64,000 nucleotides of DNA. Origin: an uncultured Marinomonas sp. Its GTDB lineage: Bacteria > Pseudomonadota > Gammaproteobacteria > Pseudomonadales > Marinomonadaceae. The stretch spans positions 12,220 through 76,219 of the forward strand of contig CAXBGJ010000001.1 in the NCBI GenBank assembly GCA_963975045.1, read 5' to 3'. A program made the position numbers and the translations under genes. Below, one piece after another: positions 36,201 to 62,863 of this stretch. Each line of letters starts with the position of its first letter. The first letter of the stretch is position 1. A model generated the notes under the pieces. It did not search any database. It had not been told where the DNA came from and saw nothing but the letters and a program-made list of their open reading frames with translations.

Positions 36201-39200
36201 GCGCAATACGTCTGCTATATCTGCCACACTGGTTTGCATGTCAGCCACTTCCAGCCAATACAATGACCGCTGCTCGACTAAGGATTGTTGCCAATGATTT
36301 TGACCACCATCACTCATCGTCTGTTTAAATCGCAAACCAAATTGGGCCGAACCTTCAATGACGGTTCGCAATGCGGTTAAAATCTGTGCCGAACTAGCAT
36401 TAACTGGCGTTTTTAATAAAACAGACTGTGTGAAATAAGGAGACGGTGCATTAATCGATTCATCTAATGCTGAAGAACCTTGCAGACTGTCTAGATACCA
36501 GCGCTGCATAGGAGACAATGGCAATGAGTGCTGATCAATAAGTGGAGCAAACGTTTGATTGTTCAAGTGCTTTATTAGTGGTGCTAACTCGGCAATGGTT
36601 GGGTAGTTAAAAATTTGTTGTGAGTTAAGTACAAAACCCTGCTGTTTCAAACTGGCGATCACTTGAATAGCCACGATCGAATCACCACCTAACGCAAAAA
36701 AATTCTGATCGATATCAACCGAGTTAAGACTAAAGAAACGTCCCCATATCTCAGTGAGTAATCGTTCATTGGCCGTGCTCGCGACTCGTATTTCTGTCTT
36801 GTCAGTAACCAAAGAAGCGCTGACTAATGTTGGTAGGCGCTGGCTATCTACTTTACCGTTCGGTGTGAGAGGCATCGCCTCAAGTGTGATATAACGATGA
36901 GGCACCATGTAATCCGGTAGCCATTTTATAAGCCATTCAATGAGTACCTGACTATCGATCTTTGTTTCATTCTGCTCTGCAACCACATAACCGACTAATT
37001 GCTTTATATTATTTTCTTCACGCAGCTCAACCGTTGCATCACGAAGGCTTGGGTGCTGCTGTAAAACCGAAGCAATTTCATTTAACTCAACCCTAAATCC
37101 TCGAATCTTGACTTGCTCATCGTCACGTCCAATGAACTCAAGTTCACCGTTCAACAGATAACGTGCCAGATCACCAGTACGGTACAATCGAGCGCCTGCC
37201 TGAGACGAAAGGTGATCAGGAACAAATCGCTCCGCAGTTAACCTAACATGGCCAAGATAACCACGGGCAAGACCAATGCCCCCAATATACAGTTCACCCA
37301 CCATTCCTACGGGTAATACTTGCTTATTCGCATCCAAGACATACACCTGCACTTGCGCTATGCTGCGACCTATCGGTGTTATCGGCTCTAAATCCGCCCT
37401 AGTGTCTACCGTATGGATCGTGCTACAAACCGTGCATTCTGTAGGCCCATACGCATTCACAAATTGGCGATTTTGTGACAACCAACGCTGAACCGTTGCT
37501 TTAGAGCAGGCTTCCCCTACTGATACCACAATCTTTAACCAAGGTAGATCTATAGGGTTCAAAGTGTTAAGAACAGTTGGTGGCAAAGCAATAGTCGTCA
37601 CTTGATGAGTATTAAGCTGTGCGACTAATTCATCCCCTGGCAGACGAGCTTCTTTATTGGGAAGCACCAACGTAGAGCCATTCGCCAAGCAAGCAAATAT
37701 TTCCGCAATAGCCGCATCAAAATTCCATGATGCAAACTGTAACAAACGCTTATTAGGTGTTAATCCAAAAGGTTCACGCTGAGATTTTACTAGGTTATTG
37801 AGCCCTCGGTGCGTCAACAATGTACCTTTTGGCCGCCCAGTAGAGCCAGAGGTATAAATAATATAAGCCAGCTGTTCTAAGTCAATAATCCTACTAGACC
37901 CACCTCCTGATTGCTTGCTGATTAATCCTGCTGAGCCAGATGGTTGGCGCAAACGACTCAAGGCAATACATGGGATATCGTCAGTAGGAATACTATCTAG
38001 TAAGGCATCATCCGCAATGATGATAGAAGGCTGTGCATCTTTGAGTATGTATTCTAATCGCGTTGCAGGATAAGCGGGATCAAGGGGTAAAAACACAAAA
38101 CCCGAGGCTAAAATGGCAAGAATTATCGCAACGCCATCAATCGATTTATCACAATAGACGCCGATAACCAATTCGTTCTCAGAGGAGTGAGAACCCTGAG
38201 CCAGCGTAATTAATCCCTCAGAAAACAGATCAACCTTATGAAGTAATTCGGCATAAGTAAGACATAACTCATCACTAACAATAGCCCATTCATTTGGTGT
38301 TTCGAGTGCCATAGCGCACACAGTATCTATGACTGAAACATGCTCACTTTCCAATGGCGTAATGGGATTCAGAGAAACCAAAGAAGCATTAAATGAAAGT
38401 ATTTTTTGGTACTCGGCGTACGACAATAGACTGACGTTAGCAATGCAGGCCTTAGGCGCTTCAAGTAAGTTGCCTAACATCTGTACAAGTTGCGCAGACA
38501 AAGCCTCTATGTAATTAATGCCCACCATATCGGTACGCACCGTTAAGATACCATCCAGTCCGTTCATCGTCGGTGTGAATAACCAAGTCTGATCAAATGC
38601 AGTTTGCGTTGCACTCAAGTCTATCTCTTCACTTTGCAACCCCGCAAAACGCCAATCAACAGCAGGCATACTCTGCCATACCATCATGACTTGAAAAATC
38701 GGATGTCGCCCATCTCTAACGGATGGAAAATGATCTAATATTGACTCAAAGGCTATATCTTGATGTTGATAAGCAAGTAAACAGAAGGCCTTTACTTGTT
38801 GAATTACTTCACGAAAATCCATCTTATGATGAACATTCGCCACCATCGCTAGCGTATTGACAAAAGCACCGACAGTGTCTTCAAACTCTAACTTATCGCG
38901 ACCGGCAACTACTGAGCCAATCACCATTTTTTTTGCTGCTGACAGATTTTTTTCAGTACTGCTGGACTGTTTGTAAAGCAAGATAAATAAAGCCGACAAC
39001 ATCACCATTTGTGGGGTTGCTTGACACTGTGACGCTTGCGTTTGTATTTTTGCGAATAATGATTTATCTATATGAAAACGATGCTGAATCGCCTCATGTA
39101 CATTGGAGCTCTGTTGTCCGGTATTAACATTATCCGGGGACAGTACCGGTAATTGCAGTGCATCAACAGCGGTTAAACGCTCTTGCCAAAACGGCAATTG

Positions 39201-42200
39201 CTGTTCAATAAACACGTTCAAATTTCCTTGATACCAATCAGCAAAGTCAGCGTATGCATGGGGTGACTTGGAGAAAACAGTAGTAGGATCCAAAGGTAAA
39301 ACGTTATTCGCCTCTGCATTGTCATGCCGACTTATCTGCGCATAGAGATGCGCCCATTCTTGCATCAAAATTGAAGCAGACCATCCATCCGCCAAAATAT
39401 GATGTAGACAAACCAGTAAAATGGACTCGTCAGTGCTCAGTTTGGCTAGTTTAAAACGAACGGGTGGTGCTAAAACAAGGTCAAATTCATCATTGATTTG
39501 CAGTTTTAACCAAGCATCGACAAACGGCGCTGATGCATTGTCTAACGATACGATGTCGAGTTCTGCTTGATATGAAGGGATAACCTCAGCAAATATCGGC
39601 TCATCAACAACATCGCCAACCGCTTCAGTAAAACGCGTTCGCAAACTATCATGTCGGTCGGTTAATACCTGCAAAGCTATTAATAAAGCCTGCTCATCTA
39701 GTATTCCACGTAATCGCACCGCCCCAAAAATATGATGAGCATTACCGGCAGTCGAAACATTATGTAATGTCCAGAAGCGCTTCTGTGTTGGCGTTAAAGG
39801 GTAAAATACAGGTGCTGAATCCGCTAAAAAGGCTCGCTTAAGCAACTTACTTGTTGCCCTTTGAGGCGCACTGCTCTGGTCAAAATTTAAATCCTCTGCA
39901 AGGTCTGTTGACCAAATTTTTTCTCGTCGAATAATGTCGGCAAAATCAAACAACACCGGTGTGGAAAAGACTTGGGACAATGCAATTTCAACCGAAAATT
40001 GCGCTCTAACTCGAGCAATCATTTTCGCTGCAACTAGACTATGTCCGCCCAAATCAAAAAAGTTATCGTCCCGATAAATATCATTACGTTCAAGCACATC
40101 AGCCCAAATTTGCGACAATAATTGCTCCGTCAAACCTTCAGCTGTCCGTTTGCTACGAGCAACTTGAGACGTATTCCATACAGCCGGTTCGATTAACGCT
40201 TTACGGTTCACCTTACCACTATCACTCAGCGGTAAGGTCTCCATCTCACACCAAGCAGAGGGCAACATAGCGGCACTTACGCGCTGTGACATCCATCGTT
40301 CGAGAGTTTCAACCGCAATGTCCACACCTTGATTTATACGATAATAAACCGCCAGTTTAGAACCTAAATCAGACGGCCAAATTTTAGCGGCTACCGAATC
40401 AATGGCAGGGTATTCAGTTAACACCGCTTCGATTTCACCAAGCTCAATTCGCTGACCACGAATTTTCACTTGCCCGTCCATGCGCCCCACATATTCTAGT
40501 GCACCACTTTCTAAACGGCGTACACGATCGCCCGTACGGTATAAACGACTTCCGGCTTGCGTCATATTAAATGGGCTCGGAATAAAGCTTGCTGCTGTGA
40601 GCGCAGATTGACCAACATAACCATGGGCCAGATTAGCACCGCCCAGATACAACTCCCCCACTACGCCTTGAGGCATTAATTCAAGCGCCTCATTCAGCAC
40701 ATAGGTCTGCGTATTATCGATAGGCACGCCAATAGGAACACTAAAACGAGTATTGGAAAGCGCGTGATTACGCTCATCAAACTCATACCAAGTGACATCG
40801 ATGGCCGCTTCTGTTGGGCCATATAAATTATCGACTGGAACGTTAAATGCGTCATTCGCTGTTTTGGCTAAACTGCTTTCTAAATTTTCACCGGAACAAA
40901 TGATACGCTTTAGTAAATATACATTTGATGACTGCAATGGCGCAGTACTCAAGAAGCTATGCAACATCGCGGGAACAAAATGCAGCGTGGTGATCGCTTT
41001 TTCTCGAATCAATCGTTCTAGATAAACACTGTCCCTATGACCTCCCGGTTCTGCGAGCACAAGCACTGCACCTGCTCGTAATGGCCAAAATAATTCCCAT
41101 ATAGAGACATCAAAGCTGATCGGCGTTTTATGCAACACCCGATCACTACAATCAAGCTGATAGCGTGTTTGCATCCATTCCAAGCGATTTACAATGGCGG
41201 CATGAGAGACTAATACCCCCTTTGGTTTTCCGGTGGAACCCGAGGTATACAATAAATACGCACTACTTTGCGGAAGCATCTCTATGGCTTGAAATACTGG
41301 TATTACGCACGGGGTTCGCTCTGCCTGCCAATCGTCTAAAATAACCTTTCGATTCTCTACGGCCATTCGCTTAGCATGCTGACGCTGCACTAAAGTAATG
41401 CAGACATCGGCATCAATAATTAAATCATGTAGGCGTTGATCTGGTAAATCTGGGTCTAATGGTAAATACGTAGCACCAGCCTGTAGTACCGCATAAATCC
41501 CGACCATCATCTCTAATGAGCGTTCAGAAAATACGGCAACGACATCCCCATGGGTAATGCCTTGACTCTGCAAATGCGAGGCTAAGTTCTGACTGCGTTG
41601 CCAGAGTTGTTGATAACTTAACGAATCTGTTTCACTCACTAGAGCAAGGCGATCTGGATAACGCTTAGCCAGCACTATAAAGCGGTCCAACAGCCAACAA
41701 GAAGTAACTTGTTTCTGTGGACCTTGAGAAACGATCAATTCACGCTGTTGCTCTTCTTTAGACAACACAGCTAAGCGGGCCAAAGGTGTTACTGCAGACT
41801 GGACAATGTCACCTAACAAATGAATATAGCGCTGACAAAAATCACTTATCTCTGACGCATCGTAAAGTTGTGACCTATATTCCACATCCAGCCTGATAGA
41901 TGACTGATTGTCAGAGCAACGAATTCGCCTAAAGTAGAGGGTTAAATCATACTTACATTGGCTAGATAACAAGCGATGAGGATGAACTTTTGTACCTTCT
42001 AGTGACCAAGAGGAATCACTTAAAACGTCATCCTGCCAATCCACCAGCACATCAAAAAATGGCATGTGGCCTGCGGGTGTCTGAGGTTGTAACTCACTCA
42101 CCAAACGCCCTAAAGGATAGTTAGCGTGGCTCAAAGCCCCCATTAATATCGAGGCTATATTTTGCAAGTTTTGAGGAAACGATTTGCTCTCATCCAGTGT

Positions 42201-45200
42201 GACTGGTAGAGCGATATTATTCAAAAACAGTCCCATCATGTCTCTCAGTGCAGGGTCTGTTCTGGTTGATACAACAGCACCAAGTACTATTTTATGCTGG
42301 CCTGTTAAGCGATAAAACGTCGCATAGAGTGCGCTCAAATACAGCATAAAGACGCTGACATTCTGCTCTTTTGCCATGCGCTCCAGTGAGGAAAATAACG
42401 CAGCATCAAAATCCACACTGAACCATTCTGCTTGGTTGCTAACATCGTTTAATCTAGGGCGTTCAGACGCGTACTGCAATGGTTCAATGACACTGAGCTG
42501 TTGATGCCAAAAGTCACGACTTAACTGACTCTCAGGAGCTTGCATTTTCTTATCTATCCAGTAGACATAATCTTGGTATTGCAAGGTGGCTGGTACCATT
42601 GAACTAGAATGATATACCGCCGATAACTCATCCAAAAAGTAGCGTAAACTATGTCCATCAAATGCAAGATGATGAAACACAAACAGCAGTAAGTTTTGCT
42701 GTGAACCGAGCTCATAACGGTGCACTCTAACCAAGGGCGCGGAATTTAGATTAAACGGCTGATCCACCGCTTTTTGAATGACGTGCTTCTGTTTTTCAGC
42801 ACTCCAGCCAATCCCATTGTCGACGATAATGTCAAACTCAACACGCTCTTGTATGAGCTGTACCGGACCGTCAATGGTATCAATAATAGCGGTTCGTAAA
42901 ATATCGTATTTTTCTAACAGTAACCTCACCGAAGTATGAAGTTTAATATGGTCAAGCTCACCCTCTACCATAAATAGAGCAGGTATGTGGTAAGCACTTG
43001 CATTGTCTGTAGTGAGCTTCTGACATTGAACCCAAATGTCATATTGCGCGGGCGACAATATAAATTGCTGTTGCCTTTTTACCGCTAATAAAGGCATAAG
43101 CGCTACATTCTTATTCAACTCAGATACGATAGGTTTGGCATCGTGAGGGCAATTGGTTTCTTCCAGAGTCGCCTGATCAAGAAATGTTAATAAGGTTGCG
43201 ATTGTTGGGTGTTTAAAGATCTCTTGTAAGGGCATCGATAGACCAAATGCACGATTAATCAAGGCAACTAATTGTGCGCCAGAAAGCGAATGACCACCAA
43301 CACTGAAAAAATTATCATCAATTGAAAACGAATCGTGTTGCAGAACCGTTCGCCAGATGGCTGTTAAGGCAACCTCAGCTTGTGATTTTTGACGATCAGG
43401 ATCAGTAAGAAAGGGAGAATGCTGCTCGAAAATAGGTAATCGAGAAATATCGATACGACCATCCTGCGTGACCGGCATGTTACCCAGAATGGCAATGCGA
43501 TTAGGTAACATATGCGAAGTAAAACACGCCTGCATAGCCCCCAACAATTTAATTTCATCCTGTTGAACAAGTGTGCGACTGGTCACATAACATGTCCAAG
43601 GAAGAGCCTCCTTACTCGGTGAAGGCAAGTAAACCTGTTGCACGTCTATTTGACCATAAAGGTATTCTTGCAGAATCGTTAAATCAAGGTAGTGCCCATC
43701 ATACCAATTGGGCTGATCCGTAGTACCAAGGTATTGGTAACAACCTTCCCCCCAATAAGATACTAACAGTCCTGTTGCTTTATGAGTGCTACTGGACTCA
43801 TGTTCGACCATTAGCTGTGCCTCGACCCCAATAGACACTAGGTCTGAGCACTCACCTTTTAACCACCAAGTGTCTTCGAATATAGGCTGACCCACATCGT
43901 TTCCATCAATCAAGATGCTCTTATCAGCCCTCCATATGCGTGAACTTAGGGGCCTTCCTCCGTTTGGACTACAAACTACATTATGGATATTGAGTTTGTG
44001 ATTAAAAGCCACTTTTGATGCTTGTAACCCATTAACTAAATCACCAATCACATAGATATTTATTAACGATGCTAATTGTTCTGGCTGCTCAAGTTGTAAA
44101 TTGGCAAATTGACTAGCACTTAAACATAAACTTGTGGCACCTAGTCTTTGCAAATCGAGCGTGATGTTCGTGTTATCGGATAGTACTAAACAAGAGCCTT
44201 CCGTGAGTGATCGATACTTAATGGCATAGTCCATTACATTCTGCATCGGTAATACAGAATGGATGGATAAACCAAAATCATTGCCAGACAGTGCCTTAAC
44301 TAGCAAATGCCTTTCACATTTAGTGTAAAAACACTGATGGGCAAAATCGTAAAAGCACGCATCGCTGACGTTGTCATTTTCAAAGTGCAAAACGTCTTGT
44401 TTATGGACAATATGTAAATCTGCGTCTAGGCCTTCACTCTGAAAAATCCAAACTGCACTCTTACTGCTTAATAGCTGATCCGCCAACCCGAGATTAGGGT
44501 CACCCAGAAAACGTTGGCTTGTAATCAAAAGACTAGGGCTGATCTGTTCATGATCATCGATTGTTTTTAAGGGCGCCCAGCAGGCATCACAACGATCAAC
44601 CGCCAACATAATGATGGTTGATAGTAAAGGAGACACACAACTACCAACGACATCCCCAGCCCCGATAGATTGTCGCTTTAATTCGGCACAAAGCACTGCC
44701 ACATAATGCTCGAGCTGCGTCCGATTAAGCCTAGTATCGGCACAGATTAGAACGTCAGTCTGTAATGAAGGCTGCAAAGAAGAGGCTGGCAATTGAAGTT
44801 GAGCGTAACGATTAACTGGGCGACAGTAATCTTTTACTATGGAAGTCAATTCATATTGAGCGATAGCACACTCATTCGAACTTACTAATTGCTGCAGCAG
44901 CAATAAGTAATCCTTAGAGAAGGTTATTAAACGTTCATGACTAAATTTAGATGGCTGAAATTCAAAACAGGCAGACCAACCAAAACTTTGGTTTTTGGGC
45001 TCAATATTTAAACTGATTTCAAATGTCTTGCCACTGGCATAGTGATTGAAAAAATCCGCTTGAGGTACACCAAATAACGGCTCAGCCTGCAGCGTTTCCT
45101 GAAAGGTAAATAACGCTTGGGCTAATGGATTCATGCCATTGATTCGTGTGGCTTGTAAATTACTCACCAACACATCAAAGGGTAAATTTTGATGCTCTAA

Positions 45201-48200
45201 TGCAGCCAGTAAACAGTGTTTGACGTCTGCAATAAAATCTTTGCCTGTGACACCATTCAACGTTTTATTAGATGAGTACGGTGAAAATAATACGGTATTA
45301 ACAAAGCACCCTATCAGTGGCTCTAAATCTGCATTAAACCGACCGTCTGTAGGGATTGCTAGCGCAAAGTTTTGTTGCTGGCTATGTCGACTCAATAGCA
45401 ACCAATACACGCCAAGCATTAACGTAAATAGCGTGGTCTTCTGTTCAATGGCTAATTGTTGCATTTGACCAATAAGATTAGCCGGAATATCAAACCGATA
45501 TTCCTCATAATCAGCCGTTATAGGCAGCACAGGTTCTTGTCGTTCGGTCAGTAAATGAAGGTCATGCAAGCCATTCAATTGTTGTTGCCAAAAAATTAAC
45601 TCGGATTTATTTCGTGCTGTTGACACCTGTTGCTGCTGCCAAATAGCAAAGTCACGGTAGTCTAGTTTTAGGTTATCTAAGGGCTCTTTCGTGGTGTTCA
45701 TGTCCTCTATCGCCAATTGATAAAGAGCCGACCATTCCTGAAATAAAATGCCTATTGATGTGCCATCCGCGATCAAGTGATGCAAACATATTACTAACGC
45801 ACAATCTTTAGCTGCGAACGTCAATATTCGCACTTTGAAAAGTGGTGCAGTACTTAAATCAAATAAGTGTTGTGAAAGTGCTATTAAATGCTTTTGAAGC
45901 TCATCATAGCGTTGCGATGGTGCAACATTAGAGCAATCCACTCGTTCAATTAATAACTCGCTGTTTAGTTCATCTAAGGACAAAAACCTTAACTCTGGGC
46001 TACCGGCAACCTCAGTCACTTGAGACAGTAGAATACGCTGGCGCAGCATCAAATCTTTAATGGCATGCTCTAACGCTTCTAGATTCAACTCTCCCTTAAG
46101 GCGAATCGCGCCAGGCATGTTATACGCAGTGCTTTCAGGCTCCATTTTATTTAACACCCAGAGTCTCTGCTGGGATGAAGACAATGGGCAGATAACATCC
46201 TTTTGTGCCGCCGAAATAGCGATGCTTGGTTTTATCGAATTAGGGTCACTTACTTGAGTTTGCAATACTACCGCTAGGTCACTCAATACTGGATGATCAA
46301 AAACCTGCGCCAAAGAAATTTCTAAAAACAAAAATCTTCGTACTCGAGACACCAACTTAGCAGCTAATAAACTATGACCGCCCAGTTGAAAAAAATCGTC
46401 CCCTCGGAAAACTTCCTTTACATTAAGAACCTCACACCACAAGTCACCGAGCATCTCTTCCGTTATACCTTGCGGTTTTACCTTAGTTTTTGCAGTGTCG
46501 CTAACGCTCCAGAATTCAGGCTCACGCAAGGATTTTCGATCTAACTTACCACTGCTGTTTAACGGTAGTTTATCCAAACGATTCCAACTGCTTGGCAGCA
46601 TCGCTGAGCTGACTCGCTCTGCCAACCAGGCATGTAACGCCTGGGCGTCTATAAGGCATTCGCTGTATTGTTTATGTTGATAATAAACCGCTAAACGAGC
46701 GCCAGATTCAGCAGGCCAAACTCGAGCCGCTGCAGCTTCTAACGAAGGATGCTCGGCTAAAATAGCTTCAATCTCTCCCAGTTCGATACGCTGGCCTCGT
46801 ATTTTGACCTGACCATCATTGCGCCCTAAATATTCCAGCGCACCACTGGCTAACCGACGAACTCGGTCTCCTGTACGATAAAGTCTTTCGCCCATCTGCT
46901 TCGAAAAAGGGTTAGGGATAAAGCTTGTTGCGGTTAATCTCGCTTGCCCTAGATAACCATGAGCGAGATTAAATCCCCCCAAATACAACTCACCCTCCAC
47001 ACCTCGTGGAACAAACTGCAAGGCTTCGTTCAAAACAAAGGTTTGAGTATTATCGATGGGAGTGCCAATCGGCACTGTCAATATGTTGCTATCCGCTTGA
47101 TCCGTGATATCCAATTCATGCCAAGTTACATCCACAGCCGCTTCAGTAGGGCCATAAAGATTGTGAACAGGGGCATTTAATAAAGTATTAGCTCGTACGG
47201 CCAACTGCCGCTCAAGGCTTTCTCCAGAACAAAGGATACGAGTTAACGAATAAGCGCCCTCTTGAATTTCTGCTGTTTCCAGAAAACTGCGCAACATCGC
47301 CGGCACAAAATGCACCGTTGTTATGGCTTTTTTACGCAACAAATGCTCTAGATACACCCCGTCTTTATGGCCACCGGGCTCTGCCAATACCAATGTTGCG
47401 CCTTCACGCAAAGGCCAAAATAATTCCCAAATTGACACATCAAAACTAATCGGCGTTTTATGCAGGACTCGTTCGTGACGCTTAAGCTGATAACAGGATT
47501 GCATCCACTGCAAACGGTTGCTAATCGCTAAATGTGAAATCATTACCCCTTTGGGTTTACCAGTTGAACCTGAGGTATATAGAATGTAGGCGGTACTGTT
47601 GGGCCGTAATTCAATACCATTAGAACCTTCCGTATTTTTAGATCCTCGATCTTGCGCCCAAGGCTCTAATACCACACTGGTTTTAGCAGGGCTTAAGCGT
47701 GTTACATGCTTTGCTTGTGCGAGAATGCAGGTCACTCCGCCATCATCTATCAAACCATCGATGCGCTGATCTGGTAAATCAGGGTCTAGTGGTAAGTACA
47801 CCGCCCCGGCCATCAGGGAGGCATAAATGCCCAGCATCATTTCAAACGAGCGCTCAGCAAAAACCCCGACTACATCCCCATGCCCTACACCATTGGTATG
47901 CAGGTAGGCAGCCAGATGTCGGCTACGACATTCAAATTGACCATAGCTCAGCTGATCATCACCATAGATCAGGGCTATATCATCAGGAAACGTTTTCGCG
48001 TGACGAACAAAACCATCAAGTAAGTCAGTCGATGAAATCGACTCTACTGCGCCCGAGGAACTCTCCATTTCGGCTTGATAAGCCATTGAATTTAAAAAAT
48101 TAAAATCGATTAACTTAGTGTTAGGAAATAAAACACTCTGCTCAAGCAAGAGTACTAATTGCTCAGACCAAGATTGGATAGTGGTCACGTCAAATAAATC

Positions 48201-49736
48201 GGTATTGTACTTAAAAGCCAATATCAAACCTTTCGGACCCGTTACCGCTTCCAGCATTAGATCCAACACCCCTTCCTGTTGAGGCAAGGCTATGGGGGTG
48301 ATAGTTAGGCTTCCAAATGGAATCTCAGTTTTAACCGGCTGATAAATAAAATCGTCTGGCTGATTATAGTCTTTATCAATACGCAACATATGTTCAGCAA
48401 AATCGCTCACTTGGGCAAGACTTTGCAATACAAATGCGACTTGAAATACCGGCGAGTATTGTGGATCACGCTGGCAGTCTAATGCGTCAAATAACTGTGA
48501 AAAAGGCAACTCTTGATAATCGAGCGCTTCAAGAATATTTTGGCTTGTTTGGGCCACTAAATACTGGAACGTCATTGATGCATCAAGTTGTGCAACAATT
48601 GGCATTGGGTTAACAAAAAAACCAACTGAATGCTCGTATTTTTTTGATATTCGGCCCGACAGTGGGGCACCCACAACAAAATCATTCTGGCCACTAACGC
48701 GGAACAATAAGGTCTGATAAGCCGCCATCAATACACTGTACAAGGAAACATTTTGCTGTTTTGCAAACCCCATCAATTGATCACTCAACTGACTCGTAAT
48801 ACAAACCGTGTAGCTATCACCGTTAAACGTTTGTCGTAACGGTCTTTCAGCATCACAAGGTAGTGACAAATAAGGTGGTATATTGGCTAATTTTTCCTTC
48901 CAATAATCTATTTGAGAGCTACATTTTTGCGTTGATAAAAAGTGCTTCTGCTGACTAATATACTCTGAATAAAGGCCTATTTCTGGAGCAATGCTTGCAA
49001 CTTTCCCTGTTGTTTTCTGTTGGTAAATTTGGCGAATTTCATCAATCAGCTGCCATAACGACCACCCATCTACAGCAATATGAGGAGCAACGATAACTAG
49101 ACTGGTTTCATCCGCATTACGGCCAGTCCACAGTACAGCTCGTATAATCGGCCCCGTTGACAAATTAATTGGCATTACATATTCCGCAAGTAACGCCTGC
49201 CGCTGCTGTTGTTCACTCCAACCGACAGCACTGACAACCTTTAACGGATCTTTTATGGCCTCACTCGGTGTTGTAATTTGCACAACATCCGCAGCATGTT
49301 CATTTGTATGATTCTGTTCAGCGACGACGTAATGAGTTCTAAGTATAGGATGAGCATTAATGAGCTGCGTAATCGCTACAGCCATAGCTGGCTCATCAAT
49401 CTTTGCATGAATGGTTGCAGCAAAACCCACATTAAACGCAAAACCCGTTTTATCCAGTCGGCTTAGATACCACATGGACTCTTGACCTAAAGATAACTCA
49501 AACGGCTGATCATCGTTAATAGCAGGAGCAGGAGAAGATGAGGAAGGAAAAAGGAGTAAATAATTAATGAGTTCAGGTTTTCGGCTTCGTAACGCGAGAA
49601 CCAAATCATCATCTAATACACCTTTTGGTGCATCAATTAACAATTTATCGTCCTTAACATTAAGCACAACTTTACGTTCTTTCAGATACGCTAGAAATTC
49701 CGTTATGGTCATTTCAATGGGTGAATTTGAGCTCAT
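27288..49736 (-). CDS. NRPS, modules 1-6: betaHD-C-A(Ser)-T-C-A*(vestigial)-T-C-A(Ser)-T-C-A(aromatic?)-T-E-C-A(Ser)-T-C-A(?)-T-E
   Basis: 7482 aa uninterrupted. Five A domains have YTSGSTG; codes are DVWHLSLVDK, DVWHISLIDK, DAAAVVAVCK, DVWHISLVDK and DVYYLGGVCK. There are six T domains (4 GGHS, plus 2 GGDS before E domains). E motifs are HHLVIDAVSW and HHLIVDALSW. Confidence 0.95.
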   Translation of the reverse strand: MSSNSPIEMTITEFLAYLKERKVVLNVKDDKLLIDAPKGVLDDDLVLALRSRKPELINYLLLFPSSSSPAPAINDDQPFELSLGQESMWYLSRLDKTGFAFNVGFAATIHAKIDEPAMAVAITQLINAHPILRTHYVVAEQNHTNEHAADVVQITTPSEAIKDPLKVVSAVGWSEQQQRQALLAEYVMPINLSTGPIIRAVLWTGRNADETSLVIVAPHIAVDGWSLWQLIDEIRQIYQQKTTGKVASIAPEIGLYSEYISQQKHFLSTQKCSSQIDYWKEKLANIPPYLSLPCDAERPLRQTFNGDSYTVCITSQLSDQLMGFAKQQNVSLYSVLMAAYQTLLFRVSGQNDFVVGAPLSGRISKKYEHSVGFFVNPMPIVAQLDASMTFQYLVAQTSQNILEALDYQELPFSQLFDALDCQRDPQYSPVFQVAFVLQSLAQVSDFAEHMLRIDKDYNQPDDFIYQPVKTEIPFGSLTITPIALPQQEGVLDLMLEAVTGPKGLILAFKYNTDLFDVTTIQSWSEQLVLLLEQSVLFPNTKLIDFNFLNSMAYQAEMESSSGAVESISSTDLLDGFVRHAKTFPDDIALIYGDDQLSYGQFECRSRHLAAYLHTNGVGHGDVVGVFAERSFEMMLGIYASLMAGAVYLPLDPDLPDQRIDGLIDDGGVTCILAQAKHVTRLSPAKTSVVLEPWAQDRGSKNTEGSNGIELRPNSTAYILYTSGSTGKPKGVMISHLAISNRLQWMQSCYQLKRHERVLHKTPISFDVSIWELFWPLREGATLVLAEPGGHKDGVYLEHLLRKKAITTVHFVPAMLRSFLETAEIQEGAYSLTRILCSGESLERQLAVRANTLLNAPVHNLYGPTEAAVDVTWHELDITDQADSNILTVPIGTPIDNTQTFVLNEALQFVPRGVEGELYLGGFNLAHGYLGQARLTATSFIPNPFSKQMGERLYRTGDRVRRLASGALEYLGRNDGQVKIRGQRIELGEIEAILAEHPSLEAAAARVWPAESGARLAVYYQHKQYSECLIDAQALHAWLAERVSSAMLPSSWNRLDKLPLNSSGKLDRKSLREPEFWSVSDTAKTKVKPQGITEEMLGDLWCEVLNVKEVFRGDDFFQLGGHSLLAAKLVSRVRRFLFLEISLAQVFDHPVLSDLAVVLQTQVSDPNSIKPSIAISAAQKDVICPLSSSQQRLWVLNKMEPESTAYNMPGAIRLKGELNLEALEHAIKDLMLRQRILLSQVTEVAGSPELRFLSLDELNSELLIERVDCSNVAPSQRYDELQKHLIALSQHLFDLSTAPLFKVRILTFAAKDCALVICLHHLIADGTSIGILFQEWSALYQLAIEDMNTTKEPLDNLKLDYRDFAIWQQQQVSTARNKSELIFWQQQLNGLHDLHLLTERQEPVLPITADYEEYRFDIPANLIGQMQQLAIEQKTTLFTLMLGVYWLLLSRHSQQQNFALAIPTDGRFNADLEPLIGCFVNTVLFSPYSSNKTLNGVTGKDFIADVKHCLLAALEHQNLPFDVLVSNLQATRINGMNPLAQALFTFQETLQAEPLFGVPQADFFNHYASGKTFEISLNIEPKNQSFGWSACFEFQPSKFSHERLITFSKDYLLLLQQLVSSNECAIAQYELTSIVKDYCRPVNRYAQLQLPASSLQPSLQTDVLICADTRLNRTQLEHYVAVLCAELKRQSIGAGDVVGSCVSPLLSTIIMLAVDRCDACWAPLKTIDDHEQISPSLLITSQRFLGDPNLGLADQLLSSKSAVWIFQSEGLDADLHIVHKQDVLHFENDNVSDACFYDFAHQCFYTKCERHLLVKALSGNDFGLSIHSVLPMQNVMDYAIKYRSLTEGSCLVLSDNTNITLDLQRLGATSLCLSASQFANLQLEQPEQLASLINIYVIGDLVNGLQASKVAFNHKLNIHNVVCSPNGGRPLSSRIWRADKSILIDGNDVGQPIFEDTWWLKGECSDLVSIGVEAQLMVEHESSSTHKATGLLVSYWGEGCYQYLGTTDQPNWYDGHYLDLTILQEYLYGQIDVQQVYLPSPSKEALPWTCYVTSRTLVQQDEIKLLGAMQACFTSHMLPNRIAILGNMPVTQDGRIDISRLPIFEQHSPFLTDPDRQKSQAEVALTAIWRTVLQHDSFSIDDNFFSVGGHSLSGAQLVALINRAFGLSMPLQEIFKHPTIATLLTFLDQATLEETNCPHDAKPIVSELNKNVALMPLLAVKRQQQFILSPAQYDIWVQCQKLTTDNASAYHIPALFMVEGELDHIKLHTSVRLLLEKYDILRTAIIDTIDGPVQLIQERVEFDIIVDNGIGWSAEKQKHVIQKAVDQPFNLNSAPLVRVHRYELGSQQNLLLFVFHHLAFDGHSLRYFLDELSAVYHSSSMVPATLQYQDYVYWIDKKMQAPESQLSRDFWHQQLSVIEPLQYASERPRLNDVSNQAEWFSVDFDAALFSSLERMAKEQNVSVFMLYLSALYATFYRLTGQHKIVLGAVVSTRTDPALRDMMGLFLNNIALPVTLDESKSFPQNLQNIASILMGALSHANYPLGRLVSELQPQTPAGHMPFFDVLVDWQDDVLSDSSWSLEGTKVHPHRLLSSQCKYDLTLYFRRIRCSDNQSSIRLDVEYRSQLYDASEISDFCQRYIHLLGDIVQSAVTPLARLAVLSKEEQQRELIVSQGPQKQVTSCWLLDRFIVLAKRYPDRLALVSETDSLSYQQLWQRSQNLASHLQSQGITHGDVVAVFSERSLEMMVGIYAVLQAGATYLPLDPDLPDQRLHDLIIDADVCITLVQRQHAKRMAVENRKVILDDWQAERTPCVIPVFQAIEMLPQSSAYLLYTSGSTGKPKGVLVSHAAIVNRLEWMQTRYQLDCSDRVLHKTPISFDVSIWELFWPLRAGAVLVLAEPGGHRDSVYLERLIREKAITTLHFVPAMLHSFLSTAPLQSSNVYLLKRIICSGENLESSLAKTANDAFNVPVDNLYGPTEAAIDVTWYEFDERNHALSNTRFSVPIGVPIDNTQTYVLNEALELMPQGVVGELYLGGANLAHGYVGQSALTAASFIPSPFNMTQAGSRLYRTGDRVRRLESGALEYVGRMDGQVKIRGQRIELGEIEAVLTEYPAIDSVAAKIWPSDLGSKLAVYYRINQGVDIAVETLERWMSQRVSAAMLPSAWCEMETLPLSDSGKVNRKALIEPAVWNTSQVARSKRTAEGLTEQLLSQIWADVLERNDIYRDDNFFDLGGHSLVAAKMIARVRAQFSVEIALSQVFSTPVLFDFADIIRREKIWSTDLAEDLNFDQSSAPQRATSKLLKRAFLADSAPVFYPLTPTQKRFWTLHNVSTAGNAHHIFGAVRLRGILDEQALLIALQVLTDRHDSLRTRFTEAVGDVVDEPIFAEVIPSYQAELDIVSLDNASAPFVDAWLKLQINDEFDLVLAPPVRFKLAKLSTDESILLVCLHHILADGWSASILMQEWAHLYAQISRHDNAEANNVLPLDPTTVFSKSPHAYADFADWYQGNLNVFIEQQLPFWQERLTAVDALQLPVLSPDNVNTGQQSSNVHEAIQHRFHIDKSLFAKIQTQASQCQATPQMVMLSALFILLYKQSSSTEKNLSAAKKMVIGSVVAGRDKLEFEDTVGAFVNTLAMVANVHHKMDFREVIQQVKAFCLLAYQHQDIAFESILDHFPSVRDGRHPIFQVMMVWQSMPAVDWRFAGLQSEEIDLSATQTAFDQTWLFTPTMNGLDGILTVRTDMVGINYIEALSAQLVQMLGNLLEAPKACIANVSLLSYAEYQKILSFNASLVSLNPITPLESEHVSVIDTVCAMALETPNEWAIVSDELCLTYAELLHKVDLFSEGLITLAQGSHSSENELVIGVYCDKSIDGVAIILAILASGFVFLPLDPAYPATRLEYILKDAQPSIIIADDALLDSIPTDDIPCIALSRLRQPSGSAGLISKQSGGGSSRIIDLEQLAYIIYTSGSTGRPKGTLLTHRGLNNLVKSQREPFGLTPNKRLLQFASWNFDAAIAEIFACLANGSTLVLPNKEARLPGDELVAQLNTHQVTTIALPPTVLNTLNPIDLPWLKIVVSVGEACSKATVQRWLSQNRQFVNAYGPTECTVCSTIHTVDTRADLEPITPIGRSIAQVQVYVLDANKQVLPVGMVGELYIGGIGLARGYLGHVRLTAERFVPDHLSSQAGARLYRTGDLARYLLNGELEFIGRDDEQVKIRGFRVELNEIASVLQQHPSLRDATVELREENNIKQLVGYVVAEQNETKIDSQVLIEWLIKWLPDYMVPHRYITLEAMPLTPNGKVDSQRLPTLVSASLVTDKTEIRVASTANERLLTEIWGRFFSLNSVDIDQNFFALGGDSIVAIQVIASLKQQGFVLNSQQIFNYPTIAELAPLIKHLNNQTFAPLIDQHSLPLSPMQRWYLDSLQGSSALDESINAPSPYFTQSVLLKTPVNASSAQILTALRTVIEGSAQFGLRFKQTMSDGGQNHWQQSLVEQRSLYWLEVADMQTSVADIADVLRARIDIKKGPLFAAAWINGSQGASRLLLVAHHLVIDAVSWRLFIQRLSNNMIMSNTATEDDLFIRWLSDLTGRAAAISENEARYWADIESTFSQGFIMVDPFASNTVLDERCETVYVCEDVTQAILSSANVSYNTRPEELLLASWWLTCQRYVDNANLCLKIEIEKHGRSNDVGDALGWFTSLYPLLLSVSESPFIDPVAHAIYVSKEASRAVPKQGMGYGLLKYMRPDALSIEQKTLQEHQDSRALSMVFNYLGQAGEATDSDHDFAFLDEYLGKERDLNAERFSDLELTSVVHRGRLRLSLTFSAAQIQPSIIATLLSEWQKALTDVVNHTGQTVYTPTPSDFEHVDLSTKRLADILTRYSNVQTIYPVNSLQEGMLVAIQRDNTNRQSFEQISCEFVGDFDARVFGRALTALFESQPILRSSFDCHGVSAMQVVHKNVEVDVTQMDWRNKKGDSQHALNAFVVQQRAIGFSLEQELLHRFFLIRLDDQRTYFLWCQDHRQLDGWSLPILLKQLFVFYNQANTGKPIQQLNSKKAEQSYSGYLTWLNQRDLASTDAFWRDQLTALDLDTSLPLIGNKSVDALWDQRSFDSNKVTLQLGGEESHLIRTFCRQRGITIATLVQGAWALLLDRFGDTTNTRGEKLFGVTLSGRDNGVDNIDSVVGMLINTLPLRVATHTQHTISEWLGDIQSRVNAIQSYSYSNLADIQSIYQSLNNQTSNRNSGLLKSAVVVENYPVDSSLNRSLTGFSIEKVNAYEETHFPLTLLVHPSEQLALQLMFDGHIYSKKQAQTLLEGYKHILLSLSRESNASIPLQSLVSCLSEEQQSIELRLSSGSETVVESLSLLDRFVAHTQRYPNHVALIQGQQQLSYAQLDDRSKKLAAHLQIKGVLAGDVVAVCAARSLDMMLAIYAVLQAGAVYLPLDVDLPDKRLNELVIDSHAVMILAQAPQVSRLISGVECVLIEAWQTSNRSQPTAPLQPVALMDQSVAYILYTSGSTGKPKGVMVSHGAIVNRLEWMQSYYGLTHGERVLHKTPISFDVSIWELFWPLREGATLVLADPGSHKDGVYLERLIREMAITTVHFVPAMLRGFLEYVPLQDRQYVLSRIICSGESLERSLAEHASRALGAPVYNLYGPTEAAVDVTWHKHISPIQALDDEDDTGLSVPIGVPISNTQIYVLNASLELVPSGAIGELYIGGMNLAQGYLGQSALTATSFIPSPFSTTSGARMYRTGDRVRRLPCGALEYLGRNDSQVKIRGQRIELGEVEGVASRYPGLEAVAAKVWSVGADTYLSLYFQSKQGVSININEAKRWMRERVSDALVPSVWQALDALPLSTSGKVDYKALIEPDLHHQVSQDREKTPASGEVEKALAGIWLSVLNCKEVYREDNFFELGGHSLSAAKLVAKIRDHFNVEIPLAHIFDSNSLAQLATQLEGVTARAVAVKSPQANDNTTLIPLPLSTAQTRLWIMQKIQPLSSALNVVAAFEINDAVDVERLQAAVRALLKQHRVLSSHIVSNELDQTAMQQLLPIPVRPIEIVDLSHSDSNAVDALQAKIVDQPFSLSAEPLYRFCLVTIDETSWRFIIVVHHILADGWSVDLLFQNLMENYQSNLDFEQVVENKPDYLTLIQQNQFSENEVEQGAARTYWCEKLDGYQPLMLSQAPQSANISDEVEQLKFDIPVHLVEKMSLLCKDNQASLFMGLTASLNVLLARLSRQDDLVIGFPVAGRTHTAMHQVVGCFVNSLVMRTQIAPQASFMHVLQQVRTNTLEALEHQALPFEQLVELLNVPRNQNRHPIFQLMVDLQTVDDSTIDNASLSVKPVELLRENSVYDVSFAMRVHNLEDKQTVAGTLSYRTDLFSAAQVTVWIDLWFTMLEQMCEQPNQCLSAPQWLPSDQYSLIQQLAYGDKTQPHTGTLHGGFVEQALKYPDSIAVHHLGEQISYEQLNHWSDQIAYRILADLPDSSEVVIGICAHAGIDMIAAMLGIMKAGGAYLPLDPAFPSSRIESLLKDAGVDLVLTDAAQGEKSFGADVTVQSIAVLRKLSMNRVVLPVVQAANLAYVLYTSGSTGKPKGVACQHSSVINLLADIDQRTALAVGERASMWTAFTFDVSVYEIFRPLLSGATLYPVPENIRVDTDSLLDWYLDNGIHSGYLPGFILSELAQYSEGSVEPMTLTSLLVGVEPIDQQVLSQLQCHIKGLNIINGYGPTESTVCASLHQFDSMLSGQGITPIGKPVNNVSIWLVDNNFQLVPYGSIGEVVIGGKGLARGYFGQPAMTAEQFVPLPWSNDLGAVGYRSGDLARWNAQGQLEFIGRGDFQIKLRGLRIEPNEIVQALNQHAGIENSLVMAQTDSEQYTQLVAYFTQKQGAHSAELERESLQAFLATRLPSYYIPNAFVELSEFPLTRSGKIDRNALPIAAVAQEKATTWVEASNPTEGLLMQIWQALLDVESLSTHDNFFQLGGDSILVFRLVAALRKEGVICQASQIFQHQTIASLAFHIDQQNFNGEASQEEAPEPQIAPVSPIQKWFFEQHFSEPGQWNQGLVLRLTQALPSQTIHSALLCLQRQYAALRTYFVEQEDGWQQCVHGLDEPTKAIHLAHFNFAFSSTSSEGKAAMLRVCEQLNTPFQLSQGPLFRVALVEWHDVESNSDIEPHKQLIFIAHHLIVDALSWLVIGDQLESLCAAKHTELPSRPSRMANNLDWAERLQKHALLLSHKNSSEAKNLPSELPLDYDVDNIDQENLVGSEVVLHTILALELDVTNEYAILVAALGQVISSWSEQLDTVICVESHGRSSMFPEVDLSTSIGWFTTLNSVTVNSELLALEQIQDVDQQLVTLLDSGVINSVRNAYHAQEPIKNALVSLNYFGSVDAQTNKEASTRLFQAEAITPSHLQHEKNHRPFLLELSIARKSKNLEITWVYSRNMHHESTIKALSDDYISNIKRLSESVLSNVTDQSSTLGLSIDQFDDLLDELSLFDE
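43190..44800 (-). other. Degenerate adenylation domain followed by an intact T domain (module 2), inside the large NRPS
   Basis: About 455 aa occupy the A position but lack the YTSGSTG P-loop, FD, YGPTE and TGD-R motifs. Only traces remain (IGAGDVVG; MPVTQDGRIDISRLP for LPLTxNGKIDRxxLP, with Lys replaced by Arg). The following T is FFSVGGHSL. Confidence 0.88.
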
Positions 49737-57790: not shown

Positions 57791-57991
57791 TTATTTCTCT
57801 AGAGCCTTACGTAAACTAAGGGGACGCATATCAGTCCAAACCTCTTCAATATAATCTAAACATTCCTGTCGATTTTTTTTATGTCCAACGGCTTCCCAAC
57901 CATTAGGCATTTCTTTTTCTGATGGCCAGATAGAATATTGCTCTTCATGATTGACAACCACATAGTACTCCAAAGTATCTTCGTAATTCAT
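57791..57991 (-). CDS. mbtH: MbtH-like protein
   Basis: [12 protein letters not shown]...PNGW...[17 protein letters not shown] with three conserved Trp; GAGG SD. Confidence 0.97.
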
Positions 57992-60001: not shown

Positions 60002-60013
60002 ATGACTTACTTC

Positions 60014-61465: not shown

Positions 61466-61489
61466 TTTAACTACCTCAAATCAGCGTTT

Positions 61490-62812: not shown

Positions 62813-62863
62813 AATAAATTTGCCTTTTGTCTAAATATATTTGTTGTAGATCGTCCGTCTTAT

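What the first reader, a model, noticed from the sequence alone, without database searches (positions are those of the whole stretch)
43190..44800. Module 2 has a dead, full-length adenylation domain but an intact carrier and intact flanking C domains
Seen: the A-sized segment has lost essentially every core motif (P-loop, FD, YGPTE, hinge; A10 Lys is now Arg). Yet T2 keeps GGHSL, and C2 (HHLIADG) and C3 (HHLAFDG) keep full catalytic motifs. No stand-alone A domain is encoded in the window. Established precedent: carriers loaded by another module's A domain (yersiniabactin HMWP2; intermodule activation in thalassospiramide synthetases), and module skipping usually tied to a dead carrier (myxochromide S). 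Inference: T2 is still under selection and is loaded non-collinearly, most simply by neighbouring Ser-specific A1 or A3 (giving Ser-Ser-Ser), or in trans with the pseudo-A acting as a spacer or docking scaffold. This is the best candidate for new assembly-line logic here.
Basis: partly seen in the sequence, partly recalled or inferred. Interest (0 to 1): 0.9.

Follow-up and report, generated by a model that had tools for sequence, protein, structure and literature searches.

The report
Conserved dead adenylation domain in NRPS
One module of a giant lipopeptide-making enzyme has an amino-acid-activating domain that has lost all its catalytic motifs, yet selection has kept it as a folded part in two distant bacteria. 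Its carrier domain is therefore most likely loaded with serine by a neighbouring module, a trick already known from a few other peptide synthetases.

Summary
Residues 1628-2105 of the 7482-aa NRPS (window 43422-44855, minus strand) are a collinear, near full-length relic of an adenylation (A) domain.
- It has no P-loop, YGPTE, YRTGD or hinge motif, and the A10 Lys is Arg.
- Pfam no longer detects it. A profile-profile comparison still aligns it to A domains over 464 columns (99.1%).
- C2, T2 (GGHSL) and C3 are intact.

New here: an exhaustive search found one orthologue, in an Arenicella MAG. It carries the same dead domain.
- The relic is 31% identical between the two lineages. Live domains are 45-65% identical, and synonymous sites are saturated.
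- It shares motifs found only in the two relics, and strain polymorphism shows fewer amino-acid changes than neutral drift predicts.
- It is therefore an old pseudo-domain kept by selection, not junk. Only the former P-loop zone drifts freely.
- C2 and T2 are as conserved as the active C3, so module 2 is in use.

No stand-alone amino-acid A domain was found in the window or the genome. A1, A3 and A5 all read as Ser. The best reading is cross-module loading of T2 with Ser, giving acyl-Ser-Ser-Ser. This is inferred, not shown.

Precedents exist (Sib1, SidD/NPS6, KtzH A*, albicidin), so this is a new member of a known kind and of moderate interest.

The parts
27288..49736 (-). 7482-aa NRPS (N2): dock-C1-A1-T1-C2-A*-T2-C3-A3-T3-C4-A4-T4-E-C5-A5-T5-C6-A6-T6-E
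   Evidence: ORF list, translation, Pfam, motif map
44907..46244 (-). C2 condensation domain (aa 1165-1610). HHLIADG lies at 45762-45782. It groups with the LCL-type C domains.
   Evidence: Pfam Condensation 242 bits. 49% identical to the Arenicella orthologue with the motif kept. Identity matrix.
43422..44855 (-). A*: relic of an adenylation domain (aa 1628-2105) with all core motifs lost
   Evidence: hhalign 99.15% over 464 columns. AF2 pLDDT 66, and Foldseek TM 0.65-0.67 to Txo2 and GrsA A domains.
44157..44519 (-). Unconstrained zone of A* (aa 1740-1860), the former P-loop/A3-A4 region
   Evidence: Only 7-20% identity to the Arenicella A*, with indels. AF2 pLDDT is below 50 across A* residues 99-177, which overlaps most of this zone.
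44568..44594 (-). RCDACWAPL: an A*-specific conserved version of motif A2 (Arenicella has RCGACWLPL)
43422..43781 (-). C-terminal subdomain of A* (aa 1986-2105), the best-kept part. Contains DQPNWYDGHYLD (old A8, 43683-43718) and QDGRIDIS (old A10, Lys to Arg, 43443-43466).
   Evidence: 44% identical to the orthologue, the same as T2. Weak PDB matches to the A subdomain.
43167..43394 (-). T2 carrier domain (aa 2115-2190). GGHSL with Ser2150 (codon 43287-43289).
   Evidence: Pfam PP-binding 55.8 bits. The motif is kept in the Arenicella orthologue. Coordinates.
41757..43094 (-). C3 condensation domain (aa 2215-2660). HHLAFDG lies at 42654-42674.
   Evidence: Pfam 263 bits. 48% identical to the orthologue.
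46512..48059 (-). A1, Ser-type adenylation domain (code DVWHLSLVDK). Candidate loader of T2.
   Evidence: Alignment with the code read by hand. 64.5% identical to the Arenicella A1.
40182..41729 (-). A3, Ser-type adenylation domain (DVWHISLIDK). Candidate loader of T2.
   Evidence: 60% identical to A1 and A5.
32145..33707 (-). A5, third Ser-type adenylation domain (DVWHISLVDK)
57791..57991 (-). MbtH-like protein at the head of the operon
   Evidence: ORF. Called as PF03621 in the strain contigs and in the Arenicella contig.
49733..57676 (-). FAAL-ACP-KS-AT-cMT-KR-ACP starter protein that feeds C1
   Evidence: Pfam

Best explanation
Module 2 (C2-A*-T2) is a working elongation module whose adenylation domain died long ago.

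Shown:
- A* descends from a normal A domain.
- It lost ATP- and substrate-handling motifs A3-A8 and the A10 lysine before the Marinomonas-like and Arenicella lineages of this gene cluster split.
- Since then selection has kept it as a folded pseudo-domain. The second half of its N-terminal core and its C-terminal subdomain are constrained. The former P-loop zone drifts freely.
- C2 and T2 are conserved as strongly as the active C3.

Inferred:
- A* is kept because the C-A platform and the mobile A subdomain are needed to hold T2 and move it between the C2 acceptor site and the C3 donor site.
- T2 is loaded with L-Ser by one of the three Ser-activating A domains of the same protein (A1, A3 or A5), within one molecule or between two. 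The lipopeptide would then start acyl-Ser-Ser-Ser and have ten residues.
- Because the neighbouring A domains activate the same amino acid, losing A2 activity cost nothing.
For: Dead A domain:
- Motifs are absent and Pfam does not detect the domain.
- It is still a collinear A homologue (hhalign 99.15%, E 3.8e-19, 464 columns).
- The AF2 model has pLDDT 66 and pTM 0.62, and matches A-domain structures at TM 0.65-0.67.

Ancient and under selection:
- Among 1.84 billion representative proteins there is one strong relative, P0032, at E 3e-41. It is the orthologous NRPS of an Arenicella MAG.
- Its A* is also dead, but Pfam AMP-binding still scores it at 44.6 bits.
- Amino-acid identity by domain: A1 64.5%, T1 56.6%, C1 54%, C2 49.1%, C3 47.8%, T2 44.7%. 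A* is 30.6% overall: N-core 26.1%, C-subdomain 44.2%.
- pS is 0.76-0.92 everywhere (saturated), while pN in A* is only 0.50.
- Alignment score against shuffled sequence gives z=75 for the whole domain and z=35 for the N-core alone.
- 136 columns are identical between the two A*, most of them not the live-A consensus.
- Among six strain or metagenome sequences A* shows 13 synonymous and 16 non-synonymous changes. Neutral drift predicts about 78% non-synonymous (binomial p=0.005). The ratio does not differ significantly from the rest of the genes (Fisher p=0.16).

Module in use:
- C2, T2 and C3 have normal Pfam scores.
- HHLIADG, GGHSL and HHL(A/I)FDG are kept in both lineages.

No trans partner:
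- The other AMP-binding genes of the 99.95%-complete genome look, read by eye from their sequences (no family scan was run on them), like:
  - FadD, Acs and PaaK types
  - an EntE-like aryl ligase
  - a partial AMP-ligase-like ORF at a contig end
  - a second NRPS
- None is in the window.
- None lies in the 16.7 kb upstream of the Arenicella cluster.

Suitable donors:
- A1, A3 and A5 are about 60% identical to one another and carry Ser codes.

Precedent:
- For Sib1, the first A domain has been proposed to take over for the degenerate second A domain, giving Gly-Gly-Gly (PMC2644324).
- SidD A1 loads both T1 and T2, next to a dA (bioRxiv 10.1101/2022.10.10.511241).
Against: - No product is known and there is no biochemical evidence, so loading of T2 by A1, A3 or A5 is pure inference.
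- Conservation of C2 and T2 would also be expected if the chain only passes through T2 without extension.
- The genome is in 388 contigs, so a small A or A-T gene could sit in a gap.
- The window's A* is far more eroded than the Arenicella copy: pairwise z<=3 against live A domains versus z 14-22 for four of the five (3.4 for A6). Strain pN/pS in A* (0.33-0.98) is above the neighbouring domains (0.1-0.3). Constraint in this lineage is therefore weak and may be fading.
- The AF2 and Foldseek evidence is partly circular, because the input alignment consisted of A domains.
- Only two lineages are available, and dS is saturated, so no proper dN/dS value can be given.
Confidence: 0.55

Rival explanations
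1. Module 2 is a non-extending pass-through. T2 is never aminoacylated. The acyl-Ser chain moves from T1 to the T2 thiol (through C2 or spontaneously) and C3 takes it on, giving a nine-residue peptide.
For: A* is dead and no trans A domain was found. Conservation of C2 and T2 is also compatible with a relay role. Module skipping is an accepted NRPS phenomenon (myxochromide S, from my own knowledge; review PMC8949500 mentions skipped domains).
Against: - From my own knowledge, in myxochromide S skipping has been linked to a defective carrier. Here the carrier motif, the catalytic HHxxxDG of C2 and the whole 1000-aa module are conserved across two lineages.
- A pure relay would be expected to be lost by in-frame deletion.
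- Thiol-to-thiol transfer by an LCL-type C domain has no established precedent that I know of.
Confidence: 0.2
2. T2 is loaded in trans by a stand-alone A or A-T protein encoded elsewhere, with A* acting as its docking site, as in KtzN/KtzH A*, albicidin, ramoplanin and enduracidin.
For: This is the most common bacterial solution for an inactive in-line A domain (PMC8949500). The KtzH A* is reported to be critical for KtzN-mediated loading (PMC10587159). A*-specific conserved motifs could form a docking surface. The assembly is fragmented into 388 contigs.
Against: - None is in the window.
- Every other AMP-binding gene in the 99.95%-complete genome is a fatty-acyl, acetyl, phenylacetyl or aryl ligase type, a partial AMP-ligase-like ORF, or part of a second NRPS (typed by eye).
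- None is upstream of the Arenicella orthologous cluster.
Confidence: 0.08
3. A* has gained a new activity or ligand-binding role, or still activates a substrate by non-canonical chemistry. It would then be more than a passive scaffold.
For: 136 columns are identical between the two A* copies, most of them differing from the live-A consensus. These include RCxACWxPL and DQxxWxxGHYxD. A* has 16 Cys against 5 in A1.
Against: - All residues known to bind ATP, Mg and the alpha-carboxylate are lost: the P-loop, the Thr/Glu of A5, the Asp of A7 and the Lys of A10.
- The former active-site zone is the least conserved part and is modelled as disordered.
- No other Pfam family matches.
Confidence: 0.07
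4. The whole assembly line is defunct and decaying, and A* is simply the part that has decayed furthest.
For: The cluster is rare. It is absent from 36 congeneric species and 24 order-level relatives. No product is known.
Against: - A 22.4-kb reading frame is intact in at least four strain or metagenome versions and over the 2813 aa available from Arenicella.
- Strain pN/pS is 0.1-0.4 across the PKS and live NRPS domains.
- All other catalytic motifs are intact.
Confidence: 0.04

Closest known systems
Degenerate A domain (dA) of fungal siderophore synthetases: S. pombe Sib1 module 2, SidD/NPS6 module 2
   Same: An in-line A domain lacks core motifs inside a module whose T and C domains work. 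For SidD, A1 was shown to load both T1 and T2; for Sib1 the same role is proposed for the first A domain. The same residue is then incorporated repeatedly (Gly-Gly-Gly in ferrichrome) (PMC2644324; bioRxiv 10.1101/2022.10.10.511241).
   Different: - Those are fungal, iterative, non-linear synthetases.
- The SidD/NPS6 dA is truncated by about 290 N-terminal residues.
- Here the host is bacterial, the line is a linear ten-module lipopeptide synthetase, and the relic is nearly full length.
- Cross-loading is not demonstrated here.
Inactive in-line A domains complemented in trans: albicidin, cystobactamid, ramoplanin, enduracidin, kutzneride KtzH A* with KtzN
   Same: [quoted passage not shown] The KtzH A* is reported as needed for loading by the partner, which is a scaffold or docking role for a dead A domain (PMC8949500; PMC10587159).
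   Different: Those systems encode a dedicated stand-alone A or A-T protein. None was found here in the window, the genome or the orthologous locus.
Carriers served by another module's A domain: yersiniabactin HMWP2, thalassospiramide synthetase
   Same: Non-collinear aminoacylation of a carrier by an A domain of another module in a bacterial line.
   Different: As far as I recall, the served modules there lack an A domain rather than keeping a dead one.
Glidonin termination module A* (GdnB module 13)
   Same: A bacterial in-line A* cannot activate an amino acid but is retained. The C-terminal subdomain is the part that is kept (PMC10587159). Here too the C-terminal subdomain is the best-conserved part.
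   Different: The glidonin A* keeps only the A subdomain and sits in a terminal module that adds putrescine. Here the N-terminal core also persists, and the module is internal.

Membership tests
NRPS adenylation domain (ANL superfamily, Pfam PF00501 / PF13193) | Sequence match to the AMP-binding family profile | tested here: not met
   Pfam gives no AMP-binding or AMP-binding_C hit in aa 1590-2120 even at E<=10. The Arenicella orthologous A* still scores 44.6 bits against a cut-off of 29.9.
NRPS adenylation domain (ANL superfamily, Pfam PF00501 / PF13193) | Common descent and fold: collinear homology over both subdomains | tested here: met
   hhalign 99.15%, E 3.8e-19, 464 aligned columns. Foldseek top hits are all ANL enzymes, with TM 0.65-0.67 to 6p1j and 1amu. 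This second result is partly circular.
NRPS adenylation domain (ANL superfamily, Pfam PF00501 / PF13193) | Catalytic core motifs A3 (P-loop), A5 (YGPTE), A7 (Y[RK]TGD), A8 hinge and A10 Lys | tested here: not met
   All are absent or substituted. Only 17 of the 66 columns invariant in seven live A domains are kept.
NRPS adenylation domain (ANL superfamily, Pfam PF00501 / PF13193) | Amino-acid-dependent ATP-PPi exchange or adenylate formation | not testable with these tools
   Needs purified protein.
Degenerate in-line A domain with cross-module loading (Sib1, SidD/NPS6 type) | A dead A domain inside a module that keeps intact, conserved C and T domains | tested here: met
Degenerate in-line A domain with cross-module loading (Sib1, SidD/NPS6 type) | Another A domain in the same synthetase that can supply the residue | tested here: met
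   A1, A3 and A5 carry Ser codes and flank the module (read by hand against GrsA numbering).
Degenerate in-line A domain with cross-module loading (Sib1, SidD/NPS6 type) | Demonstrated aminoacylation of the orphan carrier by the foreign A domain, and a product with the repeated residue | not testable with these tools
   No product is known and there is no biochemistry.
Inactive A complemented by a stand-alone A or A-T (albicidin, KtzN, ramoplanin type) | A dedicated stand-alone A or A-T gene in the cluster or genome | tested here: not met
   Genome-wide PF00501 scan plus inspection by eye of the six hits outside the cluster. Window ORFs. Arenicella upstream flank. Caveat: the draft genome is in 388 contigs.
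Module skipping (myxochromide S type) | A skipped module with a defective carrier (recalled from memory) | tested here: not met
   T2 has GGHSL with the Ser, scores 55.8 bits on PP-binding and is conserved in the orthologue.
Module skipping (myxochromide S type) | A product one residue shorter than the module count | not testable with these tools
   The product is unknown.

The most novel reading that the evidence does not exclude
A* is not just a leftover spacer. It would be a repurposed pseudo-enzyme with its own conserved surface (RCxACWxPL, GGxPxSxRxW, DQxxWxxGHYxD). That surface would recruit a neighbouring Ser-activating A domain, or steer T2 to it. This would be an evolved adaptor for programmed inter-module aminoacylation in a linear bacterial NRPS. 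An alternative version is that C2-A*-T2 is a dedicated non-extending chain-relay or tailoring module.
Probability: 0.15. Interest if true: 0.7.

Novelty: new member of a known kind. Interest (0 to 1): 0.42.

Why it matters
Dead A domains are usually noted in passing and treated as junk or as a sign of a missing trans partner. Here a bacterial in-line relic can be shown to be old, shared by two distant lineages, and under purifying selection in its C-terminal subdomain and half of its core. Its former active-site zone drifts freely.

This gives a natural map of which parts of an A domain are needed for structure and which for catalysis, which is useful for NRPS engineering such as A-domain deletion and swap boundaries.

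It also offers a simple test system for cross-module loading, because three Ser-activating A domains sit beside one orphan carrier. The practical prediction is a lipopeptide beginning acyl-Ser-Ser-Ser with ten residues, not nine.

Tried and rejected
- Close homologues of A*:
  - None by word-indexed search of 5.8 billion clusters.
  - None in GTDB genome contigs or JGI metagenome contigs using the window's own 8-mers.
  - None in 60 relatives.
  - Only the exhaustive HMMER search found the Arenicella orthologue.
I got around this through the neighbouring PKS gene and the search for related loci.
- Classical dN/dS between the two lineages is impossible, because pS is at or above 0.75 in every domain. 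I used pN, identity, shuffle z-scores and polymorphism counts instead.
- The first AF2 run, with 8 sequences, was poor (pLDDT 48.9). Adding the Arenicella A* raised it to 66.3.
- I tried to tell which live A type A* descends from. Arenicella A* scores 97-122 against A1, A3, A4 and A5, and 36 against A6, which does not discriminate.
- I looked for an orthologous C2 in congeners, to find a sister cluster with a live A2 or without module 2. There is none: the best matches are 29-36% identical, which is paralogue level.
- A literature search for a Marinomonas lipopeptide from this cluster returned only general titles; I did not read the papers.
- Nothing lies on the opposite strand in the region. 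The only other ORF is a 68-aa one on the same minus strand, overlapping the NRPS frame. GC content there is unremarkable.
Full report
**Context**

The window carries a lipopeptide gene cluster on the minus strand.
- An MbtH-like gene lies at 57791-57991.
- A FAAL-ACP-KS-AT-cMT-KR-ACP starter protein lies at 49733-57676 (Pfam).
- Three NRPS proteins follow, of 7482, 2634 and 2849 aa. Together they hold ten modules.
- Downstream come a DUF697 protein, a cyclic-peptide ABC exporter, an SPFH protein, a probable type II thioesterase (it matches only generic alpha/beta-hydrolase families) and an Sfp-type PPTase.
- The 7482-aa protein reads dock-C1-A1-T1-C2-A*-T2-C3-A3-T3-C4-A4-T4-E-C5-A5-T5-C6-A6-T6-E.
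- The closest named homologues of a flanking housekeeping-type gene are from Marinomonas, at about 90% identity. The host is therefore probably a Marinomonas species.
- The genome is 3.79 Mb in 388 contigs and 99.95% complete.

**The observation**

The finding's coordinates map to aa 1646-2183. I place A* at aa 1628-2105 (window 43422-44855) and T2 at aa 2115-2190.
- A regular-expression scan finds P-loop, YGPTE, YRTGD and hinge motifs in all five live A domains of this protein. It finds none in module 2.
- HHLIADG (C2), GGHSL (T2) and HHLAFDG (C3) are present.
- Aligned with seven live A domains of the cluster, A* is collinear at 16-20% identity.
- It has a 6-aa deletion at the P-loop and, in that alignment, a ~26-aa gap that takes out A6. 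YGPTE is NVVCSPNGG, the hinge is GTTDQPNWYDGHYLD, and the A10 Lys is Arg.
- Pfam does not detect an AMP-binding domain even at E<=10.
- PDB sequences match only the C-terminal subdomain, at E about 1e-3.
- C2, C3 and T2 score like their active sisters.
- Nothing relevant lies on the other strand.

**Is it really an A domain, and is it junk?**

Word-based and pattern-based searches found no close relative. The exhaustive HMMER search of 1.84 billion representatives found one strong hit, P0032, at E 3e-41. All the other hits listed were ordinary NRPS proteins, nearly all matching only the C-terminal subdomain.

P0032 is a partial NRPS of an Arenicella sp. MAG. I fetched its contig as L015.
- In L015 the PKS gene overlaps a 2813-aa NRPS frame that runs open to the contig end.
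- That frame has the same order, dock-C1-A1-T1-C2-A*-T2-C3.
- The Arenicella A* is also dead: it has no P-loop, no YGPTE and no A10 Lys.
- It is less eroded, however. Pfam still gives AMP-binding 44.6 bits, and global alignments to four of the five live A domains of the window give z = 14-22 against shuffles (3.4 for A6).
- The window's A* gives z<=3 in the same test.
- A profile of the two A* copies aligns to a profile of eight live A domains with 99.15% probability over 464 columns.
- A* is therefore a genuine, near full-length A-domain relic. Since both copies have lost the same catalytic motifs, inactivation most likely predates the split of the two lineages.

**Selection**

Amino-acid identity between the two lineages, domain by domain:

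| Domain | Identity |
|---|---|
| C1 | 54% (58% over the part covered by P0032) |
| A1 | 64.5% |
| T1 | 56.6% |
| C2 | 49.1% |
| A* overall | 30.6% |
| A* N-core | 26.1% |
| A* C-terminal subdomain | 44.2% |
| T2 | 44.7% |
| C3 | 47.8% |

- Synonymous differences are saturated in every domain (pS 0.76-0.92). Neutral sequence would have lost all similarity.
- pN in A* is only 0.50, and the alignment score is 75 standard deviations above shuffles, or 35 for the N-core alone.
- Conservation is uneven.
  - aa 1696-1740, around the old A2 motif: 37-50%.
  - aa 1740-1860, the old P-loop to A4 zone: 7-20%, with indels.
  - aa 1860-1990: 27-43%.
  - The C-terminal subdomain: 37-47%, the same as T2.
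- 136 columns are identical between the two relics, and most differ from the live-A consensus. Examples are RCxACWxPL, GGxPxSxRxW, DQxxWxxGHYxD and RIAxLxxMPxxxDGxI.
- Five strain or metagenome contigs (Tara, ENA, Logan; up to 1.4% DNA divergence) plus the window give the polymorphism data.
  - A* carries 13 synonymous and 16 non-synonymous changes.
  - That is fewer non-synonymous changes than the roughly 78% expected under neutrality (binomial p=0.005).
  - The ratio is not significantly different from the rest of the two genes, which show 138 and 93 (Fisher p=0.16).
  - Pairwise pN/pS in A* is 0.33-0.98, against 0.1-0.3 in the neighbouring domains. Constraint is relaxed but still present.
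- An AF2 model built from a ten-sequence alignment reaches pLDDT 66.3 and pTM 0.62. It is confident everywhere except residues 1-31 and 99-177.
- The second of those low-confidence stretches overlaps the zone that drifts between the orthologues.
- Foldseek places the model on NRPS A domains at TM 0.65-0.67. This step is partly circular, because the alignment consisted of A domains.

**What it means for the module**

C2 and T2 are as conserved as the active C3, and their catalytic residues are kept in both lineages. Module 2 is therefore used, not bypassed as dead weight. C2 groups with the LCL-type C domains of the cluster.

A* is best read as a retained pseudo-domain. In solved NRPS modules the C domain and the A core form a platform, and the A subdomain moves the carrier (general knowledge from the SrfA-C, EntF and LgrA structures). 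This matches the pattern seen here, in which the subdomain next to T2 is the best-kept part.

**Who loads T2?**
- The genome-wide PF00501 scan finds, outside this cluster:
  - genes that look by eye like FadD, Acs and PaaK types
  - an EntE-like aryl ligase
  - a partial acyl-ligase-like ORF
  - a second NRPS on another contig
- There is no stand-alone amino-acid A or A-T gene in the window.
- None lies in the 16.7 kb upstream of the Arenicella cluster.
- A1, A3 and A5 are about 60% identical to each other. Read against GrsA numbering they carry DVWHLSLVDK, DVWHISLIDK and DVWHISLVDK, which are Ser codes.
- The simplest mechanism is therefore that one of these domains puts Ser on T2, in cis or between molecules. 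The product would begin acyl-Ser-Ser-Ser.
- This step is inference. A non-extending relay through T2 cannot be excluded by sequence.

**Comparison with what is known**

In-line degenerate or inactive A domains are documented.
- S. pombe Sib1 has a degenerate second A domain. Its function, and that of a missing A domain, is proposed to be taken over by the first A domain, giving three glycines (PMC2644324).
- SidD/NPS6 have a truncated dA, and SidD A1 was shown to load both T1 and T2 (bioRxiv 10.1101/2022.10.10.511241).
- Albicidin, cystobactamid, ramoplanin and enduracidin complement an inactive A domain with a stand-alone A-T protein (PMC8949500).
- KtzH carries a non-functional A* that is needed for loading by KtzN. 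The glidonin terminal module keeps only an A subdomain (PMC10587159).
- Earlier notes of this scan also report retained dead A domains in other genomes. These are leads only.

The present case fits the Sib1/SidD logic, but in a linear bacterial lipopeptide line. The relic is nearly full length, and there is explicit evidence for purifying selection on it. It fails the defining feature of the trans-complemented class, since no partner gene was found. It also fails that of myxochromide-type skipping, since the carrier is intact.

**Verdict**

This is a new member of a known kind, of moderate interest.

Noticed in passing
window 34686-34706 (aa 5011-5017 of the 7482-aa NRPS): C5, the condensation domain after the first epimerase, has DHRQLDG in place of HHxxxDG. 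The first His of the motif is Asp.
   Followed up: no
window 49065-49085 (aa 218-224): C1, the first C domain, which receives the PKS-built acyl chain, has PHIAVDG in place of HHxxxDG.
   Followed up: no
L015 (Arenicella MAG contig JBOEHE010000064.1) and G061:C72:20334-21470: The only orthologous cluster found is in an Arenicella MAG, at 45-65% protein identity. 36 congeners of the window's genome lack it. The cluster therefore looks horizontally transferred between distant gammaproteobacteria. The MAG's copy is split over several contigs.
   Followed up: partly
window 43422-44855 versus L015:10001-11542: Erosion is asymmetric. Pfam still detects the Arenicella relic as AMP-binding (44.6 bits), and 26 of 66 invariant columns are kept. 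The window's copy is undetectable, with 17 of 66 kept. Decay has gone further, or constraint is weaker, in the window's lineage.
   Followed up: partly
G000 contigs C116 (3950-10274) and C156 (4153-5791): A second NRPS (C-A-T-E-C-A..., cut by the contig end) and an EntE-like 2,3-dihydroxybenzoate-AMP ligase lie elsewhere in the genome. They probably belong to a catecholate siderophore pathway.
   Followed up: no
L013, alignment position 8142-8148 (about aa 67 of the NRPS; window about 49530): One metagenome strain has a 6-bp in-frame insertion just after the N-terminal TubC-type docking domain, near the Ser-rich linker.
   Followed up: no
window 59648-64000; L012 and L013 upstream parts; L020: A block of ferredoxin, ferredoxin reductase, Rieske oxygenase, GS-like ligase and CHMI-type isomerase genes is syntenic upstream of the cluster in the strain contigs, with TRAP-transporter genes beyond it in L012. 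It is absent upstream of the Arenicella cluster. There the neighbours are a DctP-family binding protein, a NiFe-hydrogenase-like protein and Tct transporter genes. The block is probably not part of the biosynthetic cluster.
   Followed up: partly
window 43422-44855: The relic is unusually rich in cysteine: 16 Cys in 478 aa against 5 in A1. This includes a CxxC (RCDAC) that is conserved in the Arenicella copy (RCGAC).
   Followed up: no
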